Below are positions 10,821-17,483 of a stretch of DNA of 30,000 bases, piece by piece; within the stretch, counting starts at the first letter, position 1, and every line of letters begins with the position of its first letter. Source of the DNA: Pyrinomonadaceae bacterium. GTDB taxonomy: Bacteria > Acidobacteriota > Blastocatellia > Pyrinomonadales > Pyrinomonadaceae. The stretch covers positions 1 to 30,000 of the forward strand of contig DATANL010000550.1 of assembly GCA_036266295.1 (NCBI GenBank). Direction: 5' to 3'. The position numbers and the translations under genes are program-made. The notes under the pieces are model-generated. The model was not told where the DNA came from. It saw only the letters and a list, made by a program, of their open reading frames with translations, and searched no databases.

Positions 10821-10844
10821 TCGCGTCGCTTCAAGTTCTTTCAA

Positions 10845-10973
10845 ACACGTTCTGGTGCCCCGCATAAAAGCGGGGAGAATAGGGAAGCGGGTGAGAATCC
10901 CGCGCGGTCGCGCCACTGTAAATGACTTCGTTGAGTGTCAGCGAAGCAAAGCCAGGAGACCTGCCCGAACGTT
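10845..10973 (+). ncRNA. Cobalamin (B12) riboswitch, compact form
   Basis: Conserved B12-element motifs GGTGCCC...AATAGGGAA, GGTGAGAATCC, GCCACTGTA, and the B12 box AAGCCAGGAGACCTGCC. P1 is ACGTTC/GAACGT. It lies directly upstream of an ABC transporter plus TonB receptor operon. Confidence 0.95.
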
Positions 10974-11039
10974 ACAGCAGCATTCGAACGCCCGCGAAAA
11001 GGTGTTCAGGCCGCACAGGGAATTTCCTTTCAAGGAACA

Positions 11040-11098
11040 ATCCCGTTGCCAGCCTGTCGTCTTCGCGCGGCAGATGAGGTGACGGGATTTTAATTTTT
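11040..11098 (+). terminator. Riboswitch expression-platform hairpin (intrinsic terminator and/or SD-sequestering hairpin)
   Basis: ATCCCGTTGCC (11040-11050) pairs with GGTGACGGGAT (11078-11088), with an inner CTGTCG/CGGCAG stem, followed by TTTAATTTTT. The 3' arm overlaps SD-like GAGGTGA (11076-11082). Confidence 0.75.
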
Positions 11099-11105
11099 AA
11101 GACAC

Positions 11106-11222
11106 AAATTTGGAGTGCGCCGGCAGAGTCCCGATTATATCGGGACGGCGACGGCGCTTTGGATCGCCGGTCCGCTATTCGTGCGAATCCAAAGCGGCGT
11201 CAAGCCGCCGCACTCCAAATTT
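11106..11222. repeat. REP doublet, family D (TTTGGAGTGCGGCGGCTTGACGCCGCTTT), copy 1
   Basis: 14-bp perfect terminal inverted repeat AAATTTGGAGTGCG/CGCACTCCAAATTT. The right arm ATCCAAAGCGGCGTCAAGCCGCCGCACTCCAAA matches the arms at 22972-23061. The left arm carries a nested hairpin. Confidence 0.9.
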
Positions 11223-12118
11223 GCGTGTTCGCAATTCTTTCGCTGCTGATTGTTACGTCGTGTTCGCGCATCCGAAATAACGAACCACAATCAAACGCGC
11301 AGACTCACGAAGTCACGGACGAAGCCGGCCGCCGCGTCCGTATCCCGCAGAAAATAGATCGCATCGTTTCGCTGGCGCCGAATCTCACTGAGATCGTTTA
11401 CGCAGTCGGCGCCGGCGAGCAGTTAGTCGGTGACACTGAATACTGCGACTATCCGCCGCAGGCAAAGAATGTCGCGAAGATCGGCGATACACTTCATCCC
11501 AGCATCGAGCGCATCATCGCGCTCAAGCCACAGATTGTTCTGGTCTCGACCGCTTCGCAACTCGAATCCTTCACCAAACAACTCGACGAACAGCACATCG
11601 CCGTCTACGTTACCGAGCCACAAAATTTGGATGATGCTTTGAAATCAATTCAGACTTTGGGAGATGCGCTCAATCATCACGACAAGGCCACGACATTGGT
11701 TGATGAATTGCGCCGTCGTAGCTCGGCGGTCGAAAACGCGGTCAAAGCTTCCCAGCCGGTTAAAGTTTTCTACCAGGTTTCGGGTGAGCCGCTTTACACG
11801 ATTGGTCGTGAGTCATATTTGACTGATCTCGTGCGCCGCGCCGGCGGCGTCTCAGTTACCGCGGACGTGCCGGGTGCGTTTCCACGTTTCAGCGATGAAG
11901 CCGCGCTGGCGTTGCGGCCGGACGCGGTCATTTTGTCGACTGGCGGCTCGATGGGCGAAGCGAACGCGACGATCGCGCCGTCGCTCAAGAACTCACCGGC
12001 GGTCCTGAATAATCGCGTCTACCGAATCAACGGCGATCTGCTTTCGCGTCCCGGCCCCCGGCTCGTAGACGGACTGGAAGCCATCGCGCGCGCGCTGCAT
12101 CCGGAGGCTTTCCGATGA
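11159..12118 (+). CDS. btuF: Cobalamin ABC transporter substrate-binding lipoprotein (start uncertain: 11087 ATT, 11159 TTG or 11225 GTG)
   Basis: RIVSLAPNLTEIVYAVG, CDYPP, PSIERIIALKP, RPGPRLVDGLE. Lipobox IVTS-C. First gene after the B12 riboswitch. Confidence 0.88.
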   Translation: MDRRSAIRANPKRRQAAALQICVFAILSLLIVTSCSRIRNNEPQSNAQTHEVTDEAGRRVRIPQKIDRIVSLAPNLTEIVYAVGAGEQLVGDTEYCDYPPQAKNVAKIGDTLHPSIERIIALKPQIVLVSTASQLESFTKQLDEQHIAVYVTEPQNLDDALKSIQTLGDALNHHDKATTLVDELRRRSSAVENAVKASQPVKVFYQVSGEPLYTIGRESYLTDLVRRAGGVSVTADVPGAFPRFSDEAALALRPDAVILSTGGSMGEANATIAPSLKNSPAVLNNRVYRINGDLLSRPGPRLVDGLEAIARALHPEAFR

Positions 12119-13131
12119 GGCGAGCACCACTCAGTACGTTCAAGCGGACGATCAGCATCTGCGGGTTGCTGTTATTGGCCCTGCTTGGAATCGTCACCGT
12201 TGCGTCACTGTTCGGCAGTGAGCGTTTGCCGCTACTAAATTCGCTCTGCGCCTTGACCGGCAGAAGCAATTGCGGTTTGTCTGCCGAGCAACAGGCCATC
12301 CTTTATGAAATTCGTTTGCCCCGCGTCTCACTGGCGGGAGTTGTGGGAATGTGTCTGGCGGCCGCCGGCGCGGGTTATCAGTCCCTGTTGCGGAATCCTT
12401 TGGCGGAACCTTATCTGCTCGGCGTTTCGAATGGCGCGGCGGTCGGCACGATGCTGGCGATGGTTTTCTTCGGCGCGCACGAATGGAGCCGGCCGTTGTT
12501 GGCTTTCGGCGGGGCGATCATCGCCAGTGCCGTCGTTTATCAACTCGCGCGAGGTCGCGCGGGCGCGACGCCGGATCGCCTGATTCTCGCCGGAGTGATC
12601 GTCACCACTTTTCTTTCTTCAGCGATTGTTTTTCTGACGGTCTTGATGGATGCCACGCGCATTCGCTCGTTCACGTTTTGGCTGCTGGGCGATTTGTCGG
12701 GCACCAGCGGCCGCTTGCTGACAATGGCTTTGATTGGTGTGGTAATTGGCGTCGTCGTGCTGATGTTCACTGCCCGTTCGCTGAATCTGATGATGCTGGG
12801 CGAGCGTGATGCTTTCGATCTGGGCGTCGAAGTCGGTCGCATTCGCTTGCTGGTGTTTCTGGCTGCGAGTGTCCTGGTCGGCTCGTCAGTCGCCGCGAGC
12901 GGATCGGTTGGTTACGTCGGTCTGGTGGTGCCGCATCTGGTCCGGCTTTCCTTTGGCAGCGACAATCGCATGGTCATTCCTGCTTCCGCGCTGGCGGGCG
13001 CAAGTTTCGTCATCGTGGCGGACACCCTGGCGCGCACGCTGATCGCGCCGCGCGAATTGCCGGTCGGCGCGATCACTGCCCTCATCGGCGCGCCGCTTTT
13101 CATTTACCTGCTGCGGAGAGGATCAAACTGA
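12115..13131 (+). CDS. btuC: Cobalamin ABC transporter permease (FecCD/BtuC family)
   Basis: IRLPRV, QSLLRNPLAEPYLLGVSNGA, FWLLGDL, GYVGLVVPH, ELPVGAITALIGAPLF. ATGA overlap with btuF. Confidence 0.9.
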   Translation: MRRAPLSTFKRTISICGLLLLALLGIVTVASLFGSERLPLLNSLCALTGRSNCGLSAEQQAILYEIRLPRVSLAGVVGMCLAAAGAGYQSLLRNPLAEPYLLGVSNGAAVGTMLAMVFFGAHEWSRPLLAFGGAIIASAVVYQLARGRAGATPDRLILAGVIVTTFLSSAIVFLTVLMDATRIRSFTFWLLGDLSGTSGRLLTMALIGVVIGVVVLMFTARSLNLMMLGERDAFDLGVEVGRIRLLVFLAASVLVGSSVAASGSVGYVGLVVPHLVRLSFGSDNRMVIPASALAGASFVIVADTLARTLIAPRELPVGAITALIGAPLFIYLLRRGSN

Positions 13132-13829
13132 TGGCGAAGAAAACTCTCCTGAGCTGGAGCAGCGGTAAGGACAGCGCCTGGACACTGCACGTGCTGCGAC
13201 AACGGTCCGATGTGGAGGTGGTAGGGCTGATGACCACGATGAAACAGGTCTATCAACGGATCGCGATTCATGCAGTGCGCCTGGAACTGCTGCAACTTCA
13301 AGCGCAGGCAGCCGGCCTGCCTTTGCACTTGATCGATCTTCCGAGTCCCTGCACGAACGCTCAATACGAGCAGGCGATGTCAGGTTTCATCGAGCAGTCG
13401 CAGCGTGACGGAATTGAATGCATCGCGTTCGGCGATCTCTTTCTCGCTGACATCAAGGCTTATCGAGAAGAGAAATTATCAGGGACGGGAATCGCGCCGC
13501 TGTTTCCCATCTGGCAGACGCCGACGGATGTATTGGCGAAGGAAATGATCTCGAGCGGATTGCGCGCGGTCGTGACCTGCGTCGATCCAAAATGTCTCCC
13601 GGCCGGCTTTGCCGGACGCGAGTTCAACGAACAATTGCTGTCGGACCTTCCCAGCGAAGTCGATCCGTGCGGCGAGCGCGGAGAATTTCACACCTTCGCG
13701 TTTGCCGGGCCGATGTTCAATCACCCGGTACCGGTTGCAGTCGGAGAGATTGTCGAGCGCGAAGGTTTTGTTTATGCGGACGTGTTGCCGTCGCCGGCAA
13801 ACAGTTACGAAACTGCGGGTGTCAACTAG
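13131..13829 (+). CDS. DUF71/COG2102 (Dph6/diphthine-ammonia-ligase-like) PP-loop ATPase
   Basis: PP-loop SWSSGKDS, FGDLFLADIKAYRE, FPIW, FAGREF, DPCGERGEFHTF. TGATG overlap with btuC. Confidence 0.92.
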   Translation: MAKKTLLSWSSGKDSAWTLHVLRQRSDVEVVGLMTTMKQVYQRIAIHAVRLELLQLQAQAAGLPLHLIDLPSPCTNAQYEQAMSGFIEQSQRDGIECIAFGDLFLADIKAYREEKLSGTGIAPLFPIWQTPTDVLAKEMISSGLRAVVTCVDPKCLPAGFAGREFNEQLLSDLPSEVDPCGERGEFHTFAFAGPMFNHPVPVAVGEIVEREGFVYADVLPSPANSYETAGVN

Positions 13830-13832
13830 AAG

Positions 13833-14615
13833 ATGCTGGAAGCGCGCCACATTACGATCAAGTTCGAACAGCGCACGGCAGTCGCCGATGTTTCGTTGCG
13901 CGCTGAACCTGGTCAGGTGATCGCAATCATCGGTCCGAATGGCGCGGGCAAGTCGACCTTGTTGCGAGCTTTGAACGGCAGCGTGGGCCTTACGAGTGGC
14001 GAAGTATTTCTGAACGAGAAACCGATTGCGACCTATGCGCGACGCGCGGTCGCGCGGCAGATCGCTGTAGTCGCGCAGGAGTCCGACCTCCGATTTCCCG
14101 TCACGGTGATGGAATTTGTTCTGGGTGGCCGGTACGCATGGGCCAATGCCTGGGGTTGGGAGACCGAACGAGATGTCGAAATCGCGCGCGACGTCTTGCG
14201 CCAGACCGAACTGGAAAACTTTGCGGACCGTTTGATGAACAAACTCTCCGGCGGCGAGCGTCAGCGCGTGATCATGGCGCGCACTTTGGTCACGGAAGCG
14301 AAGACGTTTCTGCTTGATGAACCGACAGCGAACCTCGATCTCGCGCACCAGGCCGCGATGCTCAAACTGGTGCGCAACTGTTGCGATCGCGATCACACGG
14401 CGGCGGTCGTCGTGACTCACGACGTGAATCTGGCGGCCGAGTTTGCCGATCGAGTGGTCCTTTTGAAAAGCGGTCGCGCTATCGCTGCGGGTCGTCCGCA
14501 TGAAGTGTTGACGACAAATTTAATGCACGAGCTTTTTGGTTTGCAGATCCTGGTTGATGCTCATCCGATTTCGGGCGCGCCAAGGATCACCCCCGTACAC
14601 ACAAGACAAGGATGA
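13833..14615 (+). CDS. btuD: Cobalamin ABC transporter ATP-binding protein (BtuD/FecE family)
   Basis: Walker A GPNGAGKST, signature LSGGERQR, Walker B LLDEPT, H-loop VTHD. Confidence 0.9.
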   Translation: MLEARHITIKFEQRTAVADVSLRAEPGQVIAIIGPNGAGKSTLLRALNGSVGLTSGEVFLNEKPIATYARRAVARQIAVVAQESDLRFPVTVMEFVLGGRYAWANAWGWETERDVEIARDVLRQTELENFADRLMNKLSGGERQRVIMARTLVTEAKTFLLDEPTANLDLAHQAAMLKLVRNCCDRDHTAAVVVTHDVNLAAEFADRVVLLKSGRAIAAGRPHEVLTTNLMHELFGLQILVDAHPISGAPRITPVHTRQG

Positions 14616-14638
14616 AAGATGAAGGAGGAAGGATGAAG
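14611..14638. repeat. Heptamer tandem array GATGAAA-GATGAAG-GAGGAAG-GATGAAG
   Basis: Four units at the btuD/TonB-receptor junction. The array contains the btuD stop, an AGGAGG SD and the receptor ATG. Confidence 0.7.
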
Positions 14639-16969
14639 ACTATCCTGATTAGTCTGGCAGTTTTGGTTTTGAGCACGAGCGCCCTGGCGCAGAGCGCCAC
14701 GGACATTCATGGGCGTGTGACTGACCAACGCAAAGCCAGTGTCGCCGGCGCTGAGGTGTCTCTGCGCGCGCGTTCCGGCGCAGAAGTTGTGGCGCTGACC
14801 GATGACAACGGCGAGTACAAATTCAAGGGGCTGGCCGCCAGCGATTACGTCATCGAGGTAAAAGCGAAAGGCTTTGCGGTATTCACTTCAAAGGCGCTGC
14901 ACCTTGAGCGTGGGCAATCAATGTCGAACGACATTGAACTCCTGGTGGAAGCCGTCAACGGCACCGTCGTAATCACGGCCAACGGCACGGCGCAAAGCAC
15001 CGACGAAATCTCAAAGGCGATCAGCGTCCTCAGCGATCAAACCATCGAAGCCAAGCACGAATTGACGCTGGCCGAGAGTGTGCGCGGTCTTCCGGGTGTG
15101 CGCATCCAACAACAAGGTTCCTACGGCACCGTGACGACGATTCGACTCAGAGGCCAGCGCATCTGGGACACCTCGGTGCTTTTGGATGGGGTGCGGGTTC
15201 GCGATTCGTCAGACATCAACGGCGCGGCCGTACCTTTCATCACGGACCTGTTGCCGGTTGATCTCGATCAGGTGGAACTCCTGCGCGGCTCTGGATCGTC
15301 GATCTATGGAACGAACGCGATTGGCGGCGTTATCAATCTGGTGCCGAAGACCGGCCAGGGCAAGCCGGCATTTGAATTTGGATTCGAGGGCGGCAGCCTG
15401 GCTTTATTTCAGGAAAGGATCAAAGGTTCCGGTGGCCTGGGCCAACGCGCGGGCTTCAGCTTTGGCCTCACGCGGCTCGACGTGCGACGCGGCGTCGATG
15501 GCAACGACGAATACAGCAACACCTCCGGGGCCGGCCGGTTTACTTTTGACGCAACACCGGCCATCAAAATCAGCGCGAATTTTTTTGGCACGACTTCGAA
15601 CGCGCGCGTGAACGACAGTCCGTTTCCTCTGCCGGCTGCGTTTACCGCCGGCGCTTTTCCGAAAGCGATCGCCGGCGTGACCTTTCATCCTGATTTCAAT
15701 AATCCCGATCAGGGCCGGCGCAATCGGATTTGGGTCGGCGCCGTCAAGCTGGCCCATGAAGTGAACGACGTGGTTTCATATACGATCGCTTATCAGCACG
15801 TCGGCACGCGGCGGCGAAACTATAACGGACCCAACTTTGATCCGCAGTTCGCGGCTTTGTATCCGTTCGGCGACTTTGCCTTCCAGAGCGTCAATAACGG
15901 CGGCACCGATACGTTTGATGCGCGCGCGAACCTTCGACTAGGCCGGCACAACCTGGCAACCGCCGGTTTTGAATACGAGCACGAATCGATCTTTCAGTCG
16001 TCGACGCCGGCGTTCAGCCCGGTTAACAACACGACGGATAAGCAAACCACCCTGGCGCTCTTTGGACAGGACCAGATTTTTCTGCTCGCGGATCGCCTGC
16101 AGATCTCGTTCGGTGTTCGTGGCCAGTCCTTTCGCATTCGCGCTGCCGACCGACCGGGTTTCCTGGCGGCGGTCACTCCAGACAATGCAATCACCGGCGA
16201 CGGCTCGATTGCCTATTTTATTCGCTCTACCAATACCAAGTTGCGCGCGCACGTGGGCAATGGATTCCGCGCGCCGTCGTTATTCGAGAGGTTCGGGCAG
16301 GGAACTTTCGCGTCGGCCGGCTTCGTCCGATTCGGCGATCCGACGCTAAAGGCCGAGCAATCAATCAGCGTCGACGGCGGCTTCGACCAGTCGGTTGCCA
16401 ATGACCGGGCCCGCTTTGGCGCCACCTATTTCTATACTCACTTGCAGCGGACGATTGGGTTCAAGTCCTTCGCCCTCGATCCGCTTGGCTTGGGACGTTT
16501 CAGTGGTTATCTCAATCTGCCGGGCGGCATCTCGCGCGGGGTCGAGACCTATGCTGAGTTTGTGCCGTGGCGCAACGGCAACGTGCGCACCTCTTACACC
16601 TATACCAATAGCGATCGGTTTACGAGCCCCGGCGGTCTGCAACGCGAATACGTGGTCTCGAAAAACATTTTTGGGTTTGATTTCAGTCAACGATACCGGG
16701 CAATCCAAATCAACTTCGACTTGAACTATACGGGCGATTACATCACGCAGACTTTTGAAAATAACTTTCCGTTCCGAGTCGTCGAGATGACTTTTCCCGG
16801 TTACACGAAGGCGGATCTGTTCGCCAGTTATGAGCGCAGTCTCTCAGACAGGGTTACGTTGGTTCTCTTCGGCGGCGCCAACAACCTGTTTGACGTGAAG
16901 TACTACGAGAGTGGATTTCTGGCGCCTGGGATTACGGCGCGCGGCGGCGTGAACGTGCGGATTCGGTAG
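14633..16969 (+). CDS. btuB: TonB-dependent receptor with N-terminal carboxypeptidase-regulatory-like domain, probable cobalamin receptor (778 aa)
   Basis: Signal MKTILISLAVLVLSTSALA-Q, TonB-box-like TVVITA, plug motifs LPGV, IRLRG, VLLDG, VELLRGSGSSIYGTNAIGGVINL, barrel motifs FRAPSL and NNLFD. The B12 assignment rests on riboswitch-operon context. Confidence 0.85.
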   Translation: MKTILISLAVLVLSTSALAQSATDIHGRVTDQRKASVAGAEVSLRARSGAEVVALTDDNGEYKFKGLAASDYVIEVKAKGFAVFTSKALHLERGQSMSNDIELLVEAVNGTVVITANGTAQSTDEISKAISVLSDQTIEAKHELTLAESVRGLPGVRIQQQGSYGTVTTIRLRGQRIWDTSVLLDGVRVRDSSDINGAAVPFITDLLPVDLDQVELLRGSGSSIYGTNAIGGVINLVPKTGQGKPAFEFGFEGGSLALFQERIKGSGGLGQRAGFSFGLTRLDVRRGVDGNDEYSNTSGAGRFTFDATPAIKISANFFGTTSNARVNDSPFPLPAAFTAGAFPKAIAGVTFHPDFNNPDQGRRNRIWVGAVKLAHEVNDVVSYTIAYQHVGTRRRNYNGPNFDPQFAALYPFGDFAFQSVNNGGTDTFDARANLRLGRHNLATAGFEYEHESIFQSSTPAFSPVNNTTDKQTTLALFGQDQIFLLADRLQISFGVRGQSFRIRAADRPGFLAAVTPDNAITGDGSIAYFIRSTNTKLRAHVGNGFRAPSLFERFGQGTFASAGFVRFGDPTLKAEQSISVDGGFDQSVANDRARFGATYFYTHLQRTIGFKSFALDPLGLGRFSGYLNLPGGISRGVETYAEFVPWRNGNVRTSYTYTNSDRFTSPGGLQREYVVSKNIFGFDFSQRYRAIQINFDLNYTGDYITQTFENNFPFRVVEMTFPGYTKADLFASYERSLSDRVTLVLFGGANNLFDVKYYESGFLAPGITARGGVNVRIR

Positions 16970-17018: not shown

Positions 17019-17073
17019 TGTAGGGGCAGCTGATGACTGCCCGTGACGGGCAGGGACAAGCCCTGCCCCTACA
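17019..17073. repeat. REP doublet, family B, copy 2
   Basis: TGTAGGGGCAGCTGATGACTGCCCG plus the inverted arm CGGGCAGGGACAAGCCCTGCCCCTACA, whose reverse complement differs from the 6804 arm at one position. Lies between the convergent receptor and DUF4383 genes. Confidence 0.9.
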
Positions 17074-17081
17074 GTGGATGG

Positions 17082-17483
17082 TTAAGCGTCTCGACCGCCC
17101 AGCAAACCGCCGGCGAGGAATACAACTCCCAGCAGACAGTGCACGATGTGATCCATCTTACCGAGCTCCAGAGTTCCCGGAAGCACTGGCCAAAGTTTGC
17201 TGTCTTCCATGTGCATGCCGGCAATCGCCGAAGCGCCGGGATGTCCCATCACAAACCCGACGATTCCCAAGAGCAAATACACTGCGCCAAACACGAGACA
17301 GAAAGTGCGCGCGGCGCTTGGTGAGCCGGCGAATCCCAAATACAAGGCGATTGCGCCGGAGATTAGGTGAACGGCGTTGTGTGCGAGACTTAAGTGTGTG
17401 CCTAAGAATCCCGGCATCACAAATCCGGCGACGCCAACCAGCACAAACACCACGCCCAGAATCTTACATACCAGTTTAGCCAT
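17082..17483 (-). CDS. DUF4383 domain membrane protein
   Basis: LGVVFVLVGVAGF, HNAVHLISGAIAL, FGAVYLLLGIVGF, DHIVH. SD AGGAGG upstream. Confidence 0.85.
   Translation of the reverse strand: MAKLVCKILGVVFVLVGVAGFVMPGFLGTHLSLAHNAVHLISGAIALYLGFAGSPSAARTFCLVFGAVYLLLGIVGFVMGHPGASAIAGMHMEDSKLWPVLPGTLELGKMDHIVHCLLGVVFLAGGLLGGRDA

What the first reader, a model, noticed from the sequence alone, without database searches (positions are those of the whole stretch)
13131..13829. Dph6-like (DUF71) ATPase translationally embedded in a B12-riboswitch uptake operon
Seen: order btuF-btuC-DUF71-btuD-TonB receptor. DUF71 starts on the btuC stop (TGATG) and ends 3 nt before btuD, so it splits the permease from its ATPase and is under riboswitch control. 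Established: archaeal/eukaryotic Dph6 is an ATP-dependent amidase for diphthamide, which bacteria lack. Comparative genomics has linked a bacterial DUF71 subgroup to B12 salvage, but as far as I know its reaction is unproven. No cob/cbi genes are in the window. Inference: an ATP-dependent corrinoid side-chain (re)amidation or repair enzyme acting on imported cobamides, making this a compact uptake-and-repair system.
Basis: partly seen in the sequence, partly recalled or inferred. Interest (0 to 1): 0.65.

Follow-up and report, generated by a model that had tools for sequence, protein, structure and literature searches.

The report
B12-type Dph6 homologue inside B12 importer
A soil-type bacterium that cannot make vitamin B12 has inserted an ATP-using enzyme of a known but still untested "DUF71-B12" family into the middle of its riboswitch-controlled B12 import operon, which fits, but does not prove, a role in processing or repairing imported B12.

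Summary
One cobalamin riboswitch with a terminator leads five tightly coupled genes: btuF, btuC, DUF71, btuD and a TonB receptor.

The enzyme is not Dph6. It belongs to the DUF71-B12 subgroup published in 2012 (His replaces Glu188; motif ERGEFH). That subgroup's clustering with btuFCD is already known and its reaction is still untested. This scan has noted the family before on other DNA.

New here:
- Same-genus and same-family genomes carry the same operon without the gene, so it is a lineage-specific insertion between btuC and btuD.
- In a 200-genome phylum sample, none of about 57 DUF71-positive genomes has CbiB and only 4 have CobS. The window's genome also shows no CbiB, CobS, CobU or CbiZ, but does have B12-dependent enzymes and a PduO adenosyltransferase. 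This argues against the published CbiZ-like remodelling idea and for action on complete imported cobamides.
- Only about 30% of 142 close homologues sit in B12 transport loci, but that is the only recurrent context and it arose at least 9 times.
- Many homologues are fused to a cytoplasmic BtuF-like domain.

Verdict: new member of a known kind, moderate interest.

The parts
10836..10982 (+). Cobalamin riboswitch aptamer (RF00174)
   Evidence: cmscan gives 85 bits against a gathering score of 31.5, covering the full model 1-189. It is the only one found in the genome.
11039..11100 (+). Expression platform: intrinsic terminator hairpin plus U-run
   Evidence: RNA fold gives -27.6 kcal/mol, z = -4.0 against shuffles, followed by UUUUAAUUUUU. 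Its function as an OFF switch is inferred.
11159..12118 (+). btuF-like substrate-binding lipoprotein
   Evidence: Peripla_BP_2 110 bits. BtuF model NF002894 115 bits, below its cut-off. The N-terminus has a basic region, a hydrophobic stretch and a Cys lipobox. Congeners have orthologues 59-69% identical.
12115..13131 (+). btuC-like FecCD permease
   Evidence: FecCD 303 bits. BtuC models 264 and 230 bits, below cut-offs. Relatives have orthologues 73-77% identical.
13131..13829 (+). DUF71-B12-type PP-loop ATP pyrophosphatase (P0001, 232 aa)
   Evidence: PF01902 92 bits. Dph6 TIGR03679 67 bits against a cut-off of 197. It has SSGKDS and ERGEFH motifs. The AF2 model has pLDDT 92 and best matches PH1257/PF0828. 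The gene is absent from the syntenic operon of relatives.
13833..14615 (+). btuD-like ABC ATPase
   Evidence: ABC_tran 113 bits. Heme/corrinoid ABC ATPase models 265 and 239 bits. Relatives have orthologues 65-69% identical.
14612..16969 (+). TonB-dependent outer-membrane receptor
   Evidence: CarboxypepD_reg plus Plug. TonB-B12 and TonB-hemin models match below cut-off. Relatives have orthologues 39-67% identical in the same position.

Best explanation
Identity and setting (confidence about 0.9): the gene encodes a cytoplasmic PP-loop ATP pyrophosphatase of the published DUF71-B12 subgroup. It was acquired in this lineage and inserted between btuC and btuD. It is therefore made together with the B12 importer, and only when the cobalamin riboswitch senses too little B12.

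Mechanism (inferred, about 0.35): like its relative Dph6, the enzyme adenylates a carboxylate with ATP and lets ammonia displace AMP. The host has no CbiB, CobS, CobU or CbiZ and can only use complete cobamides. The only corrinoid carboxylates it would meet are deamidated (monocarboxylic-acid) cobamides. The enzyme would re-amidate these after import, turning inactive analogues into usable cofactor before PduO-type adenosylation.

Shown: family, motifs, fold, operon structure, insertion, phyletic pattern and fusions. Inferred: corrinoid as substrate, the ligase direction, ammonia as nucleophile, and which side chain.
For: Family and catalytic apparatus:
- PF01902 92 bits.
- The PP-loop S10-x-G12-K13-D14, H47, E185 and T188 align with the ATP-site residues of PF0828.
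- These residues are invariant or nearly invariant among 24 phylum homologues.
- The AF2 model has pLDDT 92.4 and TM 0.7-0.84 to PH1257/PF0828.

B12 subgroup: His187 replaces Glu188 and the motif is ERGEFH, the published ENGEF/YH signature.

Co-expression with import:
- The gene has a 1-nt overlap with btuC and a 3-nt spacer to btuD.
- The riboswitch and terminator lie upstream.

Selected insertion:
- Four relatives, two of them congeners, have riboswitch-btuF-btuC-btuD-receptor with the same flanks and only 33-95 nt between btuC and btuD. One instead carries an unrelated small gene there.
- The window's protein lies in a subclade whose 14 other members are unlinked.

Action on complete cobamides:
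- The own genome has MetH-like and other B12-binding proteins and a PduO adenosyltransferase.
- It shows no CbiB, CobS, CobU, CbiZ or CobA.
- In the phylum sample, 0 of about 57 DUF71-positive genomes have CbiB and 4 have CobS.

Corrinoid link:
- 42 of 142 homologues lie in riboswitch/btu loci. The tree needs at least 9 changes on starred branches and 20 overall.
- No other recurrent neighbour was found.
- About 45 of 77 long homologues are DUF71 fused to a Peripla_BP_2 domain that must be cytoplasmic. One is fused to CobT.

Ligase rather than hydrolase direction: this is the rule for PP-loop enzymes, a point already raised by a reviewer of PMC3541065.
Against: - No biochemical or genetic test of any DUF71-B12 protein was found.
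- About 70% of close homologues, including the nearest ones, are not next to any B12 gene.
- All DUF71-negative genomes tested in the phylum also have cobalamin riboswitches. The enzyme is therefore dispensable for B12 use.
- The catalytic Glu188 of Dph6 is replaced by His and a Cys is nearly invariant. The chemistry may therefore differ from plain amidation.
- The ligand of the fused binding domain is not established.
- That deamidated cobamides are common enough in nature to select for repair rests on my own knowledge, not on a tool result.
- The genome is a MAG of 833 contigs, 87% complete, so absences in it alone are weak.
Confidence: 0.35

Rival explanations
1. ATP-dependent hand-off or processing factor without amide chemistry. 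The protein binds ATP and the imported corrinoid, alone or with a cytoplasmic BtuF-like partner. It helps release the corrinoid from the importer or deliver it to the adenosyltransferase or to B12 enzymes.
For: The gene sits between the permease and ATPase genes. Fusions and neighbourhood with a signal-less BtuF-like domain are frequent. The Dph6 catalytic Glu is lost.
Against: The PP-loop and other ATP-site residues are conserved as in catalytic relatives. Known B12 chaperones belong to other folds (my knowledge). This genome has no cytoplasmic BtuF-like partner.
Confidence: 0.15
2. The substrate is not a corrinoid. The enzyme performs a B12-sparing or unrelated reaction that is useful when B12 is scarce, and is riboswitch-controlled for that reason, as B12-independent isozymes are.
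For: About 70% of close homologues are in unrelated contexts. The window's nearest relatives are unlinked.
Against: Insertion inside the transporter operon, rather than as a separate riboswitch unit. Repeated independent linkage to btu genes specifically. Fusions to a BtuF-like domain and to CobT. No alternative recurrent neighbour.
Confidence: 0.12
3. CbiB-like or other ligase acting on incomplete corrinoids. It would adenylate the f-carboxylate of cobyric acid, or another precursor carboxylate, and attach aminopropanol phosphate or another amine as a salvage step.
For: This is the right type of chemistry for a PP-loop enzyme. DUF71 and CbiB do not co-occur in the phylum sample, as a non-orthologous replacement would predict. 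In two genomes a DUF71 gene lies 7-10 kb from cobS.
Against: 53 of about 57 DUF71-positive genomes also lack CobS. The own genome lacks CobS and CobU, so the product could not be completed. In other phyla 18 of 102 DUF71-B12 genes are adjacent to cbiB (PMC3541065).
Confidence: 0.08
4. Published hypothesis (de Crecy-Lagard et al. 2012). DUF71-B12 replaces bacterial CbiZ, cleaving adenosyl-pseudo-B12 or otherwise feeding it into remodelling through cobyric acid and CbiB.
For: DUF71 and CbiZ do not co-occur here either. CbiZ is in 3 of 200 genomes and none of them has DUF71. The own genome has none. The paper reports strict anti-correlation in bacteria.
Against: All three CbiZ genes lie next to cbiB, and no DUF71-positive genome in the sample has CbiB. 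The anti-correlation is therefore explained by lifestyle: remodellers versus pure importers. In this host the product cobyric acid would be a dead end. An ATP-dependent PP-loop amidohydrolase is unprecedented, a reviewer objection recorded in PMC3541065.
Confidence: 0.07

Closest known systems
DUF71-B12 subgroup of DUF71/COG2102/PF01902 (de Crecy-Lagard et al. 2012, Biol Direct 7:32, PMC3541065)
   Same: It has the PP-loop ATPase fold. It carries the His-for-Glu188 signature (E-N/R-G-E-F/Y-H). It is a bacterial protein clustered with btuFCD. It does not co-occur with CbiZ.
   Different: The gene sits between btuC and btuD. The usual orders in my sample are riboswitch-receptor-btuD-btuC-btuF-DUF71 or riboswitch-DUF71-DUF6580-btuF-like. 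The host and nearly all phylum relatives lack CbiB/CobS, whereas the paper tied the subgroup to CbiB-containing genomes.
Dph6, diphthine-ammonia ligase (PF0828, PH1257, yeast YLR143w)
   Same: It has the same fold (TM 0.7-0.84) and the same ATP-binding residues. The adenylate-then-amidate chemistry is probably shared.
   Different: Sequence identity is about 21%. The score is far below the Dph6 equivalog cut-off. Catalytic Glu188 is His. Residues proposed to contact EF-2 are not conserved, according to the paper. Bacteria have no diphthamide.
CbiZ (adenosylcobinamide / pseudo-B12 amidohydrolase)
   Same: It has been proposed to fill the same niche in B12 salvage, and the two do not occur together.
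   Different: It has an unrelated fold, is a hydrolase and needs no ATP. In this phylum CbiZ is found only next to cbiB, while DUF71 is found only without CbiB.
CobQ/CbiP and CobB/CbiA corrinoid amidotransferases
   Same: These are ATP-dependent amidations of corrin side-chain carboxylates, the reaction type proposed here.
   Different: They are glutamine amidotransferase fusions of a different ATPase fold. They act on biosynthetic intermediates and use phosphorylated rather than adenylated intermediates (my knowledge). No convincing homologue was seen in this genome; GATase_3 matches are weak.
E. coli BtuB-BtuFCD system under a cobalamin riboswitch
   Same: It has an outer-membrane TonB receptor plus a binding protein, permease and ATPase, repressed by B12 through RF00174.
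   Different: Here all parts are in one operon, and an extra cytoplasmic enzyme gene is translationally coupled inside it.

Membership tests
DUF71 / PF01902 PP-loop ATP pyrophosphatases | Match to the PF01902 profile above the gathering score, over the whole domain | tested here: met
   92.1 bits against 23.2; residues 4-217 match profile positions 2-213 of 219.
DUF71 / PF01902 PP-loop ATP pyrophosphatases | PP-loop SGGKDS and the other ATP-site residues (H48, E186, T189 in PF0828 numbering) | tested here: met
   SSGKDS (G13 replaced by S, as in most phylum homologues), H47, E185 and T188 align with PF0828.
DUF71 / PF01902 PP-loop ATP pyrophosphatases | Fold of PF0828 / PH1257 | tested here: met
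   The AF2 model has pLDDT 92.4. Foldseek gives E 9e-13 to 1e-10 and TM 0.69-0.84 to 2d13, 3rjz and 3rk1.
Dph6 (diphthine-ammonia ligase) | Score above the equivalog cut-off of TIGR03679 | tested here: not met
   67.2 bits against a cut-off of 197.3.
Dph6 (diphthine-ammonia ligase) | EGGE/DxE188 motif with catalytic Glu188 | tested here: not met
   The motif is GERGEFH; His187 aligns with Glu188.
Dph6 (diphthine-ammonia ligase) | Host makes diphthamide (Dph1-5, EF-2 substrate) | not tested
   From established knowledge bacteria lack diphthamide. I did not search this genome for dph2 or dph5.
DUF71-B12 subgroup (PMC3541065) | E-N-G-E-F/Y-H188 signature | tested here: met
   The motif is ERGEFH with Asn replaced by Arg. 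N and R alternate among 62 phylum homologues, all of which have the His.
DUF71-B12 subgroup (PMC3541065) | Physical clustering with B12 transport (btuFCD) or cbiB genes | tested here: met
   The gene lies inside a riboswitch-led btuF-btuC-btuD-receptor operon.
DUF71-B12 subgroup (PMC3541065) | Placement in the bacterial 'cluster 2' of the family tree, apart from archaeal/eukaryotic Dph6 | tested here: inconclusive
   My tree holds only bacterial relatives, all with the His signature. No Dph6 outgroup was included.
DUF71-B12 subgroup (PMC3541065) | No co-occurrence with bacterial CbiZ | tested here: met
   The own genome has no CbiZ. In the phylum, CbiZ is in G043, G048 and G106 only, and none of these has DUF71.
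CbiZ-like cobamide remodelling role (functional hypothesis of PMC3541065) | Host can rebuild the nucleotide loop from cobyric acid (CbiB, CobU/CobY, CobS) | tested here: not met
   CbiB, CobS and CobU were not found in the own genome, which is 87% complete. CbiB is in 0 and CobS in 4 of about 57 DUF71-positive genomes that are at least 90% complete.
Riboswitch-controlled BtuFCD/TonB cobalamin importer | RF00174 aptamer upstream on the same strand, with an expression platform | tested here: met
   85 bits; terminator hairpin of -27.6 kcal/mol plus a U-run.
Riboswitch-controlled BtuFCD/TonB cobalamin importer | Cobalamin as the transported substrate | not testable with these tools
   The BtuF, BtuC, BtuD and BtuB models match below their equivalog cut-offs. 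Specificity is inferred from the riboswitch.

The most novel reading that the evidence does not exclude
DUF71-B12 proteins are cobamide repair ligases, a new enzyme activity (cobamide monocarboxylate:ammonia ligase, AMP-forming). The activity would let strict B12 auxotrophs convert deamidated, otherwise inactive or inhibitory, environmental cobamides back into cofactor. It would be independent of any nucleotide-loop or de novo pathway. This would add damage repair as a third leg of B12 economy, beside synthesis and remodelling.
Probability: 0.3. Interest if true: 0.75.

Novelty: new member of a known kind. Interest (0 to 1): 0.45.

Why it matters
DUF71-B12 is a widespread family. At least 600 matching stretches were found in one genome collection. 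It has had a function prediction but no experiment since 2012.

This locus, with its relatives, narrows the question:
- The enzyme works in organisms that can do nothing with a corrinoid except import, adenosylate and use it.
- It was recruited into B12 import operons many times independently.
- It is often fused to a cytoplasmic BtuF-like domain.

Together these largely exclude the published CbiZ-like model for these lineages. They point to a simple experiment with commercially derivable substrates, the cobalamin monocarboxylic acids. If the repair idea holds, it changes how the pool of usable B12 in soils is estimated and how B12 auxotrophs compete for it.

Tried and rejected
- Gene calling by longest ORF, and by GC3, failed on these GC-rich loci. 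A 340-aa antisense ORF at 13479-14501 outscored the real genes. I replaced both methods with homology-resolved ORFs.
- The + strand ORF 17033-17479 that looked like a sixth operon gene is spurious. The conserved frame is the minus-strand gene 17082-17483.
- I tested riboswitch co-occurrence as evidence for a B12 link. It is uninformative, because 55 of 56 DUF71-positive and 80 of 80 DUF71-negative genomes have RF00174.
- I searched for a second, cytoplasmic BtuF-like gene or a CobT in the own genome and found none.
- I looked for a compositional sign of recent transfer. The gene's GC (57.1%) and GC3 match those of its neighbours.
- The contexts of the nearest relatives, L102 and L105, are hypotheticals, a phosphoribosyltransferase, a NUDIX protein and a resolvase, and gave no lead.
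- The family name behind the precomputed label PF28410 could not be looked up, because it is not in the local library.
- No complex prediction was run, because this report claims no protein-protein binding in this window.
Full report
**Observation**

The window holds one Cobalamin riboswitch at 10836-10982 (85 bits). It is followed by a strong hairpin at 11039-11089 with a U-run (-27.6 kcal/mol, z = -4.0). Five + strand genes then follow:
- A BtuF-like lipoprotein, 11159-12118. Its signal and lipobox are seen.
- A FecCD/BtuC permease, 12115-13131.
- A PF01902 (DUF71) protein, 13131-13829.
- An ABC ATPase, 13833-14615.
- A TonB-dependent receptor, 14612-16969.

The btuC stop and the DUF71 start share a base (TGATG), with a GGAG-rich stretch 8 nt upstream. 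Three bases separate DUF71 from btuD. The other two junctions overlap by 4 nt. The next conserved gene is convergent (17082-17483 on the minus strand), so the unit has five genes.

**What the protein is**

It matches PF01902 at 92 bits. It reaches only 67 bits on the archaeal Dph6 equivalog model, whose cut-off is 197.

Against the solved Dph6-type proteins PF0828 and PH1257 it keeps the PP-loop (SSGKDS), H47, E185 and T188. It has His187 where Dph6 has the catalytic Glu188.

That change, E-N/R-G-E-F/Y-H, is exactly the signature by which de Crecy-Lagard et al. (2012, PMC3541065) separated a DUF71-B12 subgroup from Dph6. They also reported that 75 of 102 such genes lie next to btuCDF-type genes and 18 of 102 next to cbiB.

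An AlphaFold model is confident (pLDDT 92.4). Its best PDB matches are PH1257 and PF0828 (TM 0.7-0.84). No DUF71-B12 structure is in the PDB copy.

The gene is thus a member of a known, named but uncharacterised subgroup, and it is not a diphthamide enzyme. Full-text searches found no later paper that tests the reaction. Earlier notes of this scan had reached the same family assignment on other genomes.

**The host**

The genome is a MAG (4.48 Mb, 833 contigs, 87% complete). Its VWA protein matches an Acidobacteria-specific model. The named relatives of its DUF71 are largely Acidobacteriota.

It has one DUF71 and one cobalamin riboswitch, both in this window. It has six B12-binding-domain proteins, including a 1225-aa MetH-like frame, and a PduO-type adenosyltransferase.

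CbiB, CobS, CobU, CbiZ and CobA-type transferase were not found. tblastn found no CobT and no second BtuF-like gene of the fused type. On this evidence it is a cobamide user that can import and adenosylate but cannot build or rebuild the nucleotide loop.

**The insertion**

Two genomes of the same genus and two of the same family carry the same neighbourhood. It runs: a divergent IF-2B-family gene, riboswitch, btuF, btuC, btuD, receptor, then the same downstream genes. The proteins are 59-84% identical, apart from the receptor of one same-family genome at 39%. None of the four has a DUF71.

Between btuC and btuD they have 33-95 nt. One has a palindromic element there, and one has an unrelated small membrane-protein gene. 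The DUF71 gene's composition matches its neighbours.

In a tree of 142 homologues the window's protein falls in a subclade of 15 whose other members are not B12-linked. Its nearest relative (67%) is from a Nitrospirae MAG. The simplest reading is acquisition and precise insertion into an existing operon in this lineage.

**Phyletic pattern in the phylum**

The sample was 200 genomes of the phylum, each at least 90% complete.
- DUF71 is present above cut-off in 57 genomes, counting the window's genome.
- CbiB is in 11, with no overlap with the DUF71 set. A Fisher test gives 0/56 against 11/144, p = 0.036; the genomes are related, so this overstates the evidence.
- CobS is in 14, of which 4 also have DUF71.
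- CbiZ is in 3, all CbiB-positive and next to cbiB, none with DUF71.

The published anti-correlation of DUF71-B12 and CbiZ therefore holds. Here it has a simpler cause than functional equivalence: CbiZ lives in genomes that can remodel, and DUF71 lives in genomes that cannot.

Among 50 more diverse genomes that carry close homologues, 40 gave no CbiB match (their completeness is unknown).

The riboswitch is present in 55 of 56 DUF71-positive and 80 of 80 DUF71-negative genomes tested. One of the latter, G023, is unpublished; without it the count is 79 of 79. G023 is also one of the 200 in the tallies above. So the enzyme is an accessory, not a requirement for B12 use.

**Genomic context of homologues**

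I fetched 60 places from the phylum sample and the 80 best matches in the genome collection. I mapped btu homologues by tblastn. I mapped riboswitches with an nhmmer profile that recovered two known sites left out of its training set.

42 of 142 homologues (30%) have a riboswitch upstream on the same strand and/or an adjacent btu gene. 100 do not, although some of these sit on short contigs.

Typical orders are riboswitch-receptor-btuD-btuC-btuF-DUF71(-second btuF-like), or riboswitch-DUF71-DUF6580-btuF-like. The window's order was not seen elsewhere.

No other neighbour recurs across lineages. The largest non-btu neighbour clusters are lineage-specific synteny, for example NifU, GAF, NmrA-DUF2867 and inositol monophosphatase in one family.

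On the tree the B12 label needs 20 changes, against a shuffled mean of 36.5 with 0 of 500 shuffles as low. Well-supported branches alone force at least 9. Physical linkage is thus a minority state, but it is repeatedly and independently evolved.

**Fusions**

Among 77 longer homologues (48-65% identical over most of the query for the best ones), about 45 carry PF01497 as well. In three that I checked, the DUF71 domain is N-terminal and the binding-protein domain C-terminal. That domain therefore cannot be exported.

One protein is a DUF71-CobT fusion. The fused binding domain is a divergent class-III binding protein whose ligand is not established.

This agrees with earlier scan notes on signal-less BtuF-like partners. 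Together with the second btuF-like gene that follows DUF71 in many loci, it is the strongest hint that the substrate is a bound corrinoid.

**Mechanism**

PP-loop enzymes adenylate a carboxylate or carbonyl oxygen and let a nucleophile displace AMP. Dph6 does this with ammonia on diphthine.

A reviewer of the 2012 paper already objected that an ATP-dependent PP-loop enzyme is an unlikely amidohydrolase. My data add that in this host, and in nearly all DUF71-positive relatives, the product of a CbiZ-type cleavage could not be used.

In an organism limited to complete cobamides, the only corrinoid carboxylates are deamidated side chains. I put it at about 0.35.

The E188H change and a nearly invariant Cys180 warn that the chemistry may differ. 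The rivals, with my odds, are:
- An ATP-dependent hand-off factor, 0.15.
- A non-corrinoid, B12-sparing function, 0.12.
- A CbiB-like ligase on incomplete corrinoids, 0.08.
- The CbiZ-like model, 0.07.

**Verdict**

The feature is real and the family is known. It is a new gene arrangement produced by a lineage-specific insertion. The reaction remains unproven. The main value is a sharper, testable hypothesis for a widespread uncharacterised family.

Noticed in passing
window 13479-14501 (-): A 340-aa open frame runs antisense across DUF71 and btuD, with coding-like GC3. It has no family support and is most likely a spurious ORF of a GC-rich region. It fooled two simple gene callers.
   Followed up: partly
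window 17033-17483: Two overlapping ORFs lie here. The conserved one is 17082-17483 on the minus strand (133 aa, 77% identical in a congener, no Pfam family for the + strand ORF). It is convergent with the operon.
   Followed up: partly
L188 7660-7775, L191 8954-9552: The btuC-btuD junction is variable in relatives. One congener has a long palindromic REP-like element there. A same-family genome has a roughly 170-aa gene for a membrane protein with a PepSY-like N-terminus.
   Followed up: no
L189 7047-7160, L191 10393-10533: Two same-family genomes have a second cobalamin riboswitch between btuD and the TonB receptor gene. The window has a 4-nt overlap at that position instead.
   Followed up: no
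L045, L047, L053, L054, L068: A DUF6580 gene (about 200 aa, PF20221, 136 bits) lies between DUF71 and a BtuF-like gene, with -4 and +9 nt junctions, directly behind a riboswitch. It is possibly another B12-handling component.
   Followed up: partly
L042 9087-9680, L044 9074-9673, L046 8987-9592: A second, divergent DUF71 type (32-33% identical to the window's protein, motif GE[HE]GEYH) forms its own clade. It is riboswitch-linked in all three cases. In one locus it sits in tandem with the common type.
   Followed up: partly
G175 (10 matches), G184 (3 matches): One genus of the phylum has an expansion of DUF71 paralogues, none near its single riboswitch. This recalls the five copies reported for Dehalococcoides.
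   Followed up: no
P0040: A 588-aa protein fuses DUF71 (residues 10-207) to a full CobT phosphoribosyltransferase domain (residues 239-578, 384 bits).
   Followed up: partly
L105 5230-6204 (-): A serine resolvase gene lies next to the DUF71 gene of a planctomycete relative. This hints at mobility of the gene.
   Followed up: no
G246:C4:834519-835290: The CbiB frame of one DUF71-carrying acidobacterial genome is split, with an internal TGA. It is possibly a decaying cbiB.
   Followed up: no
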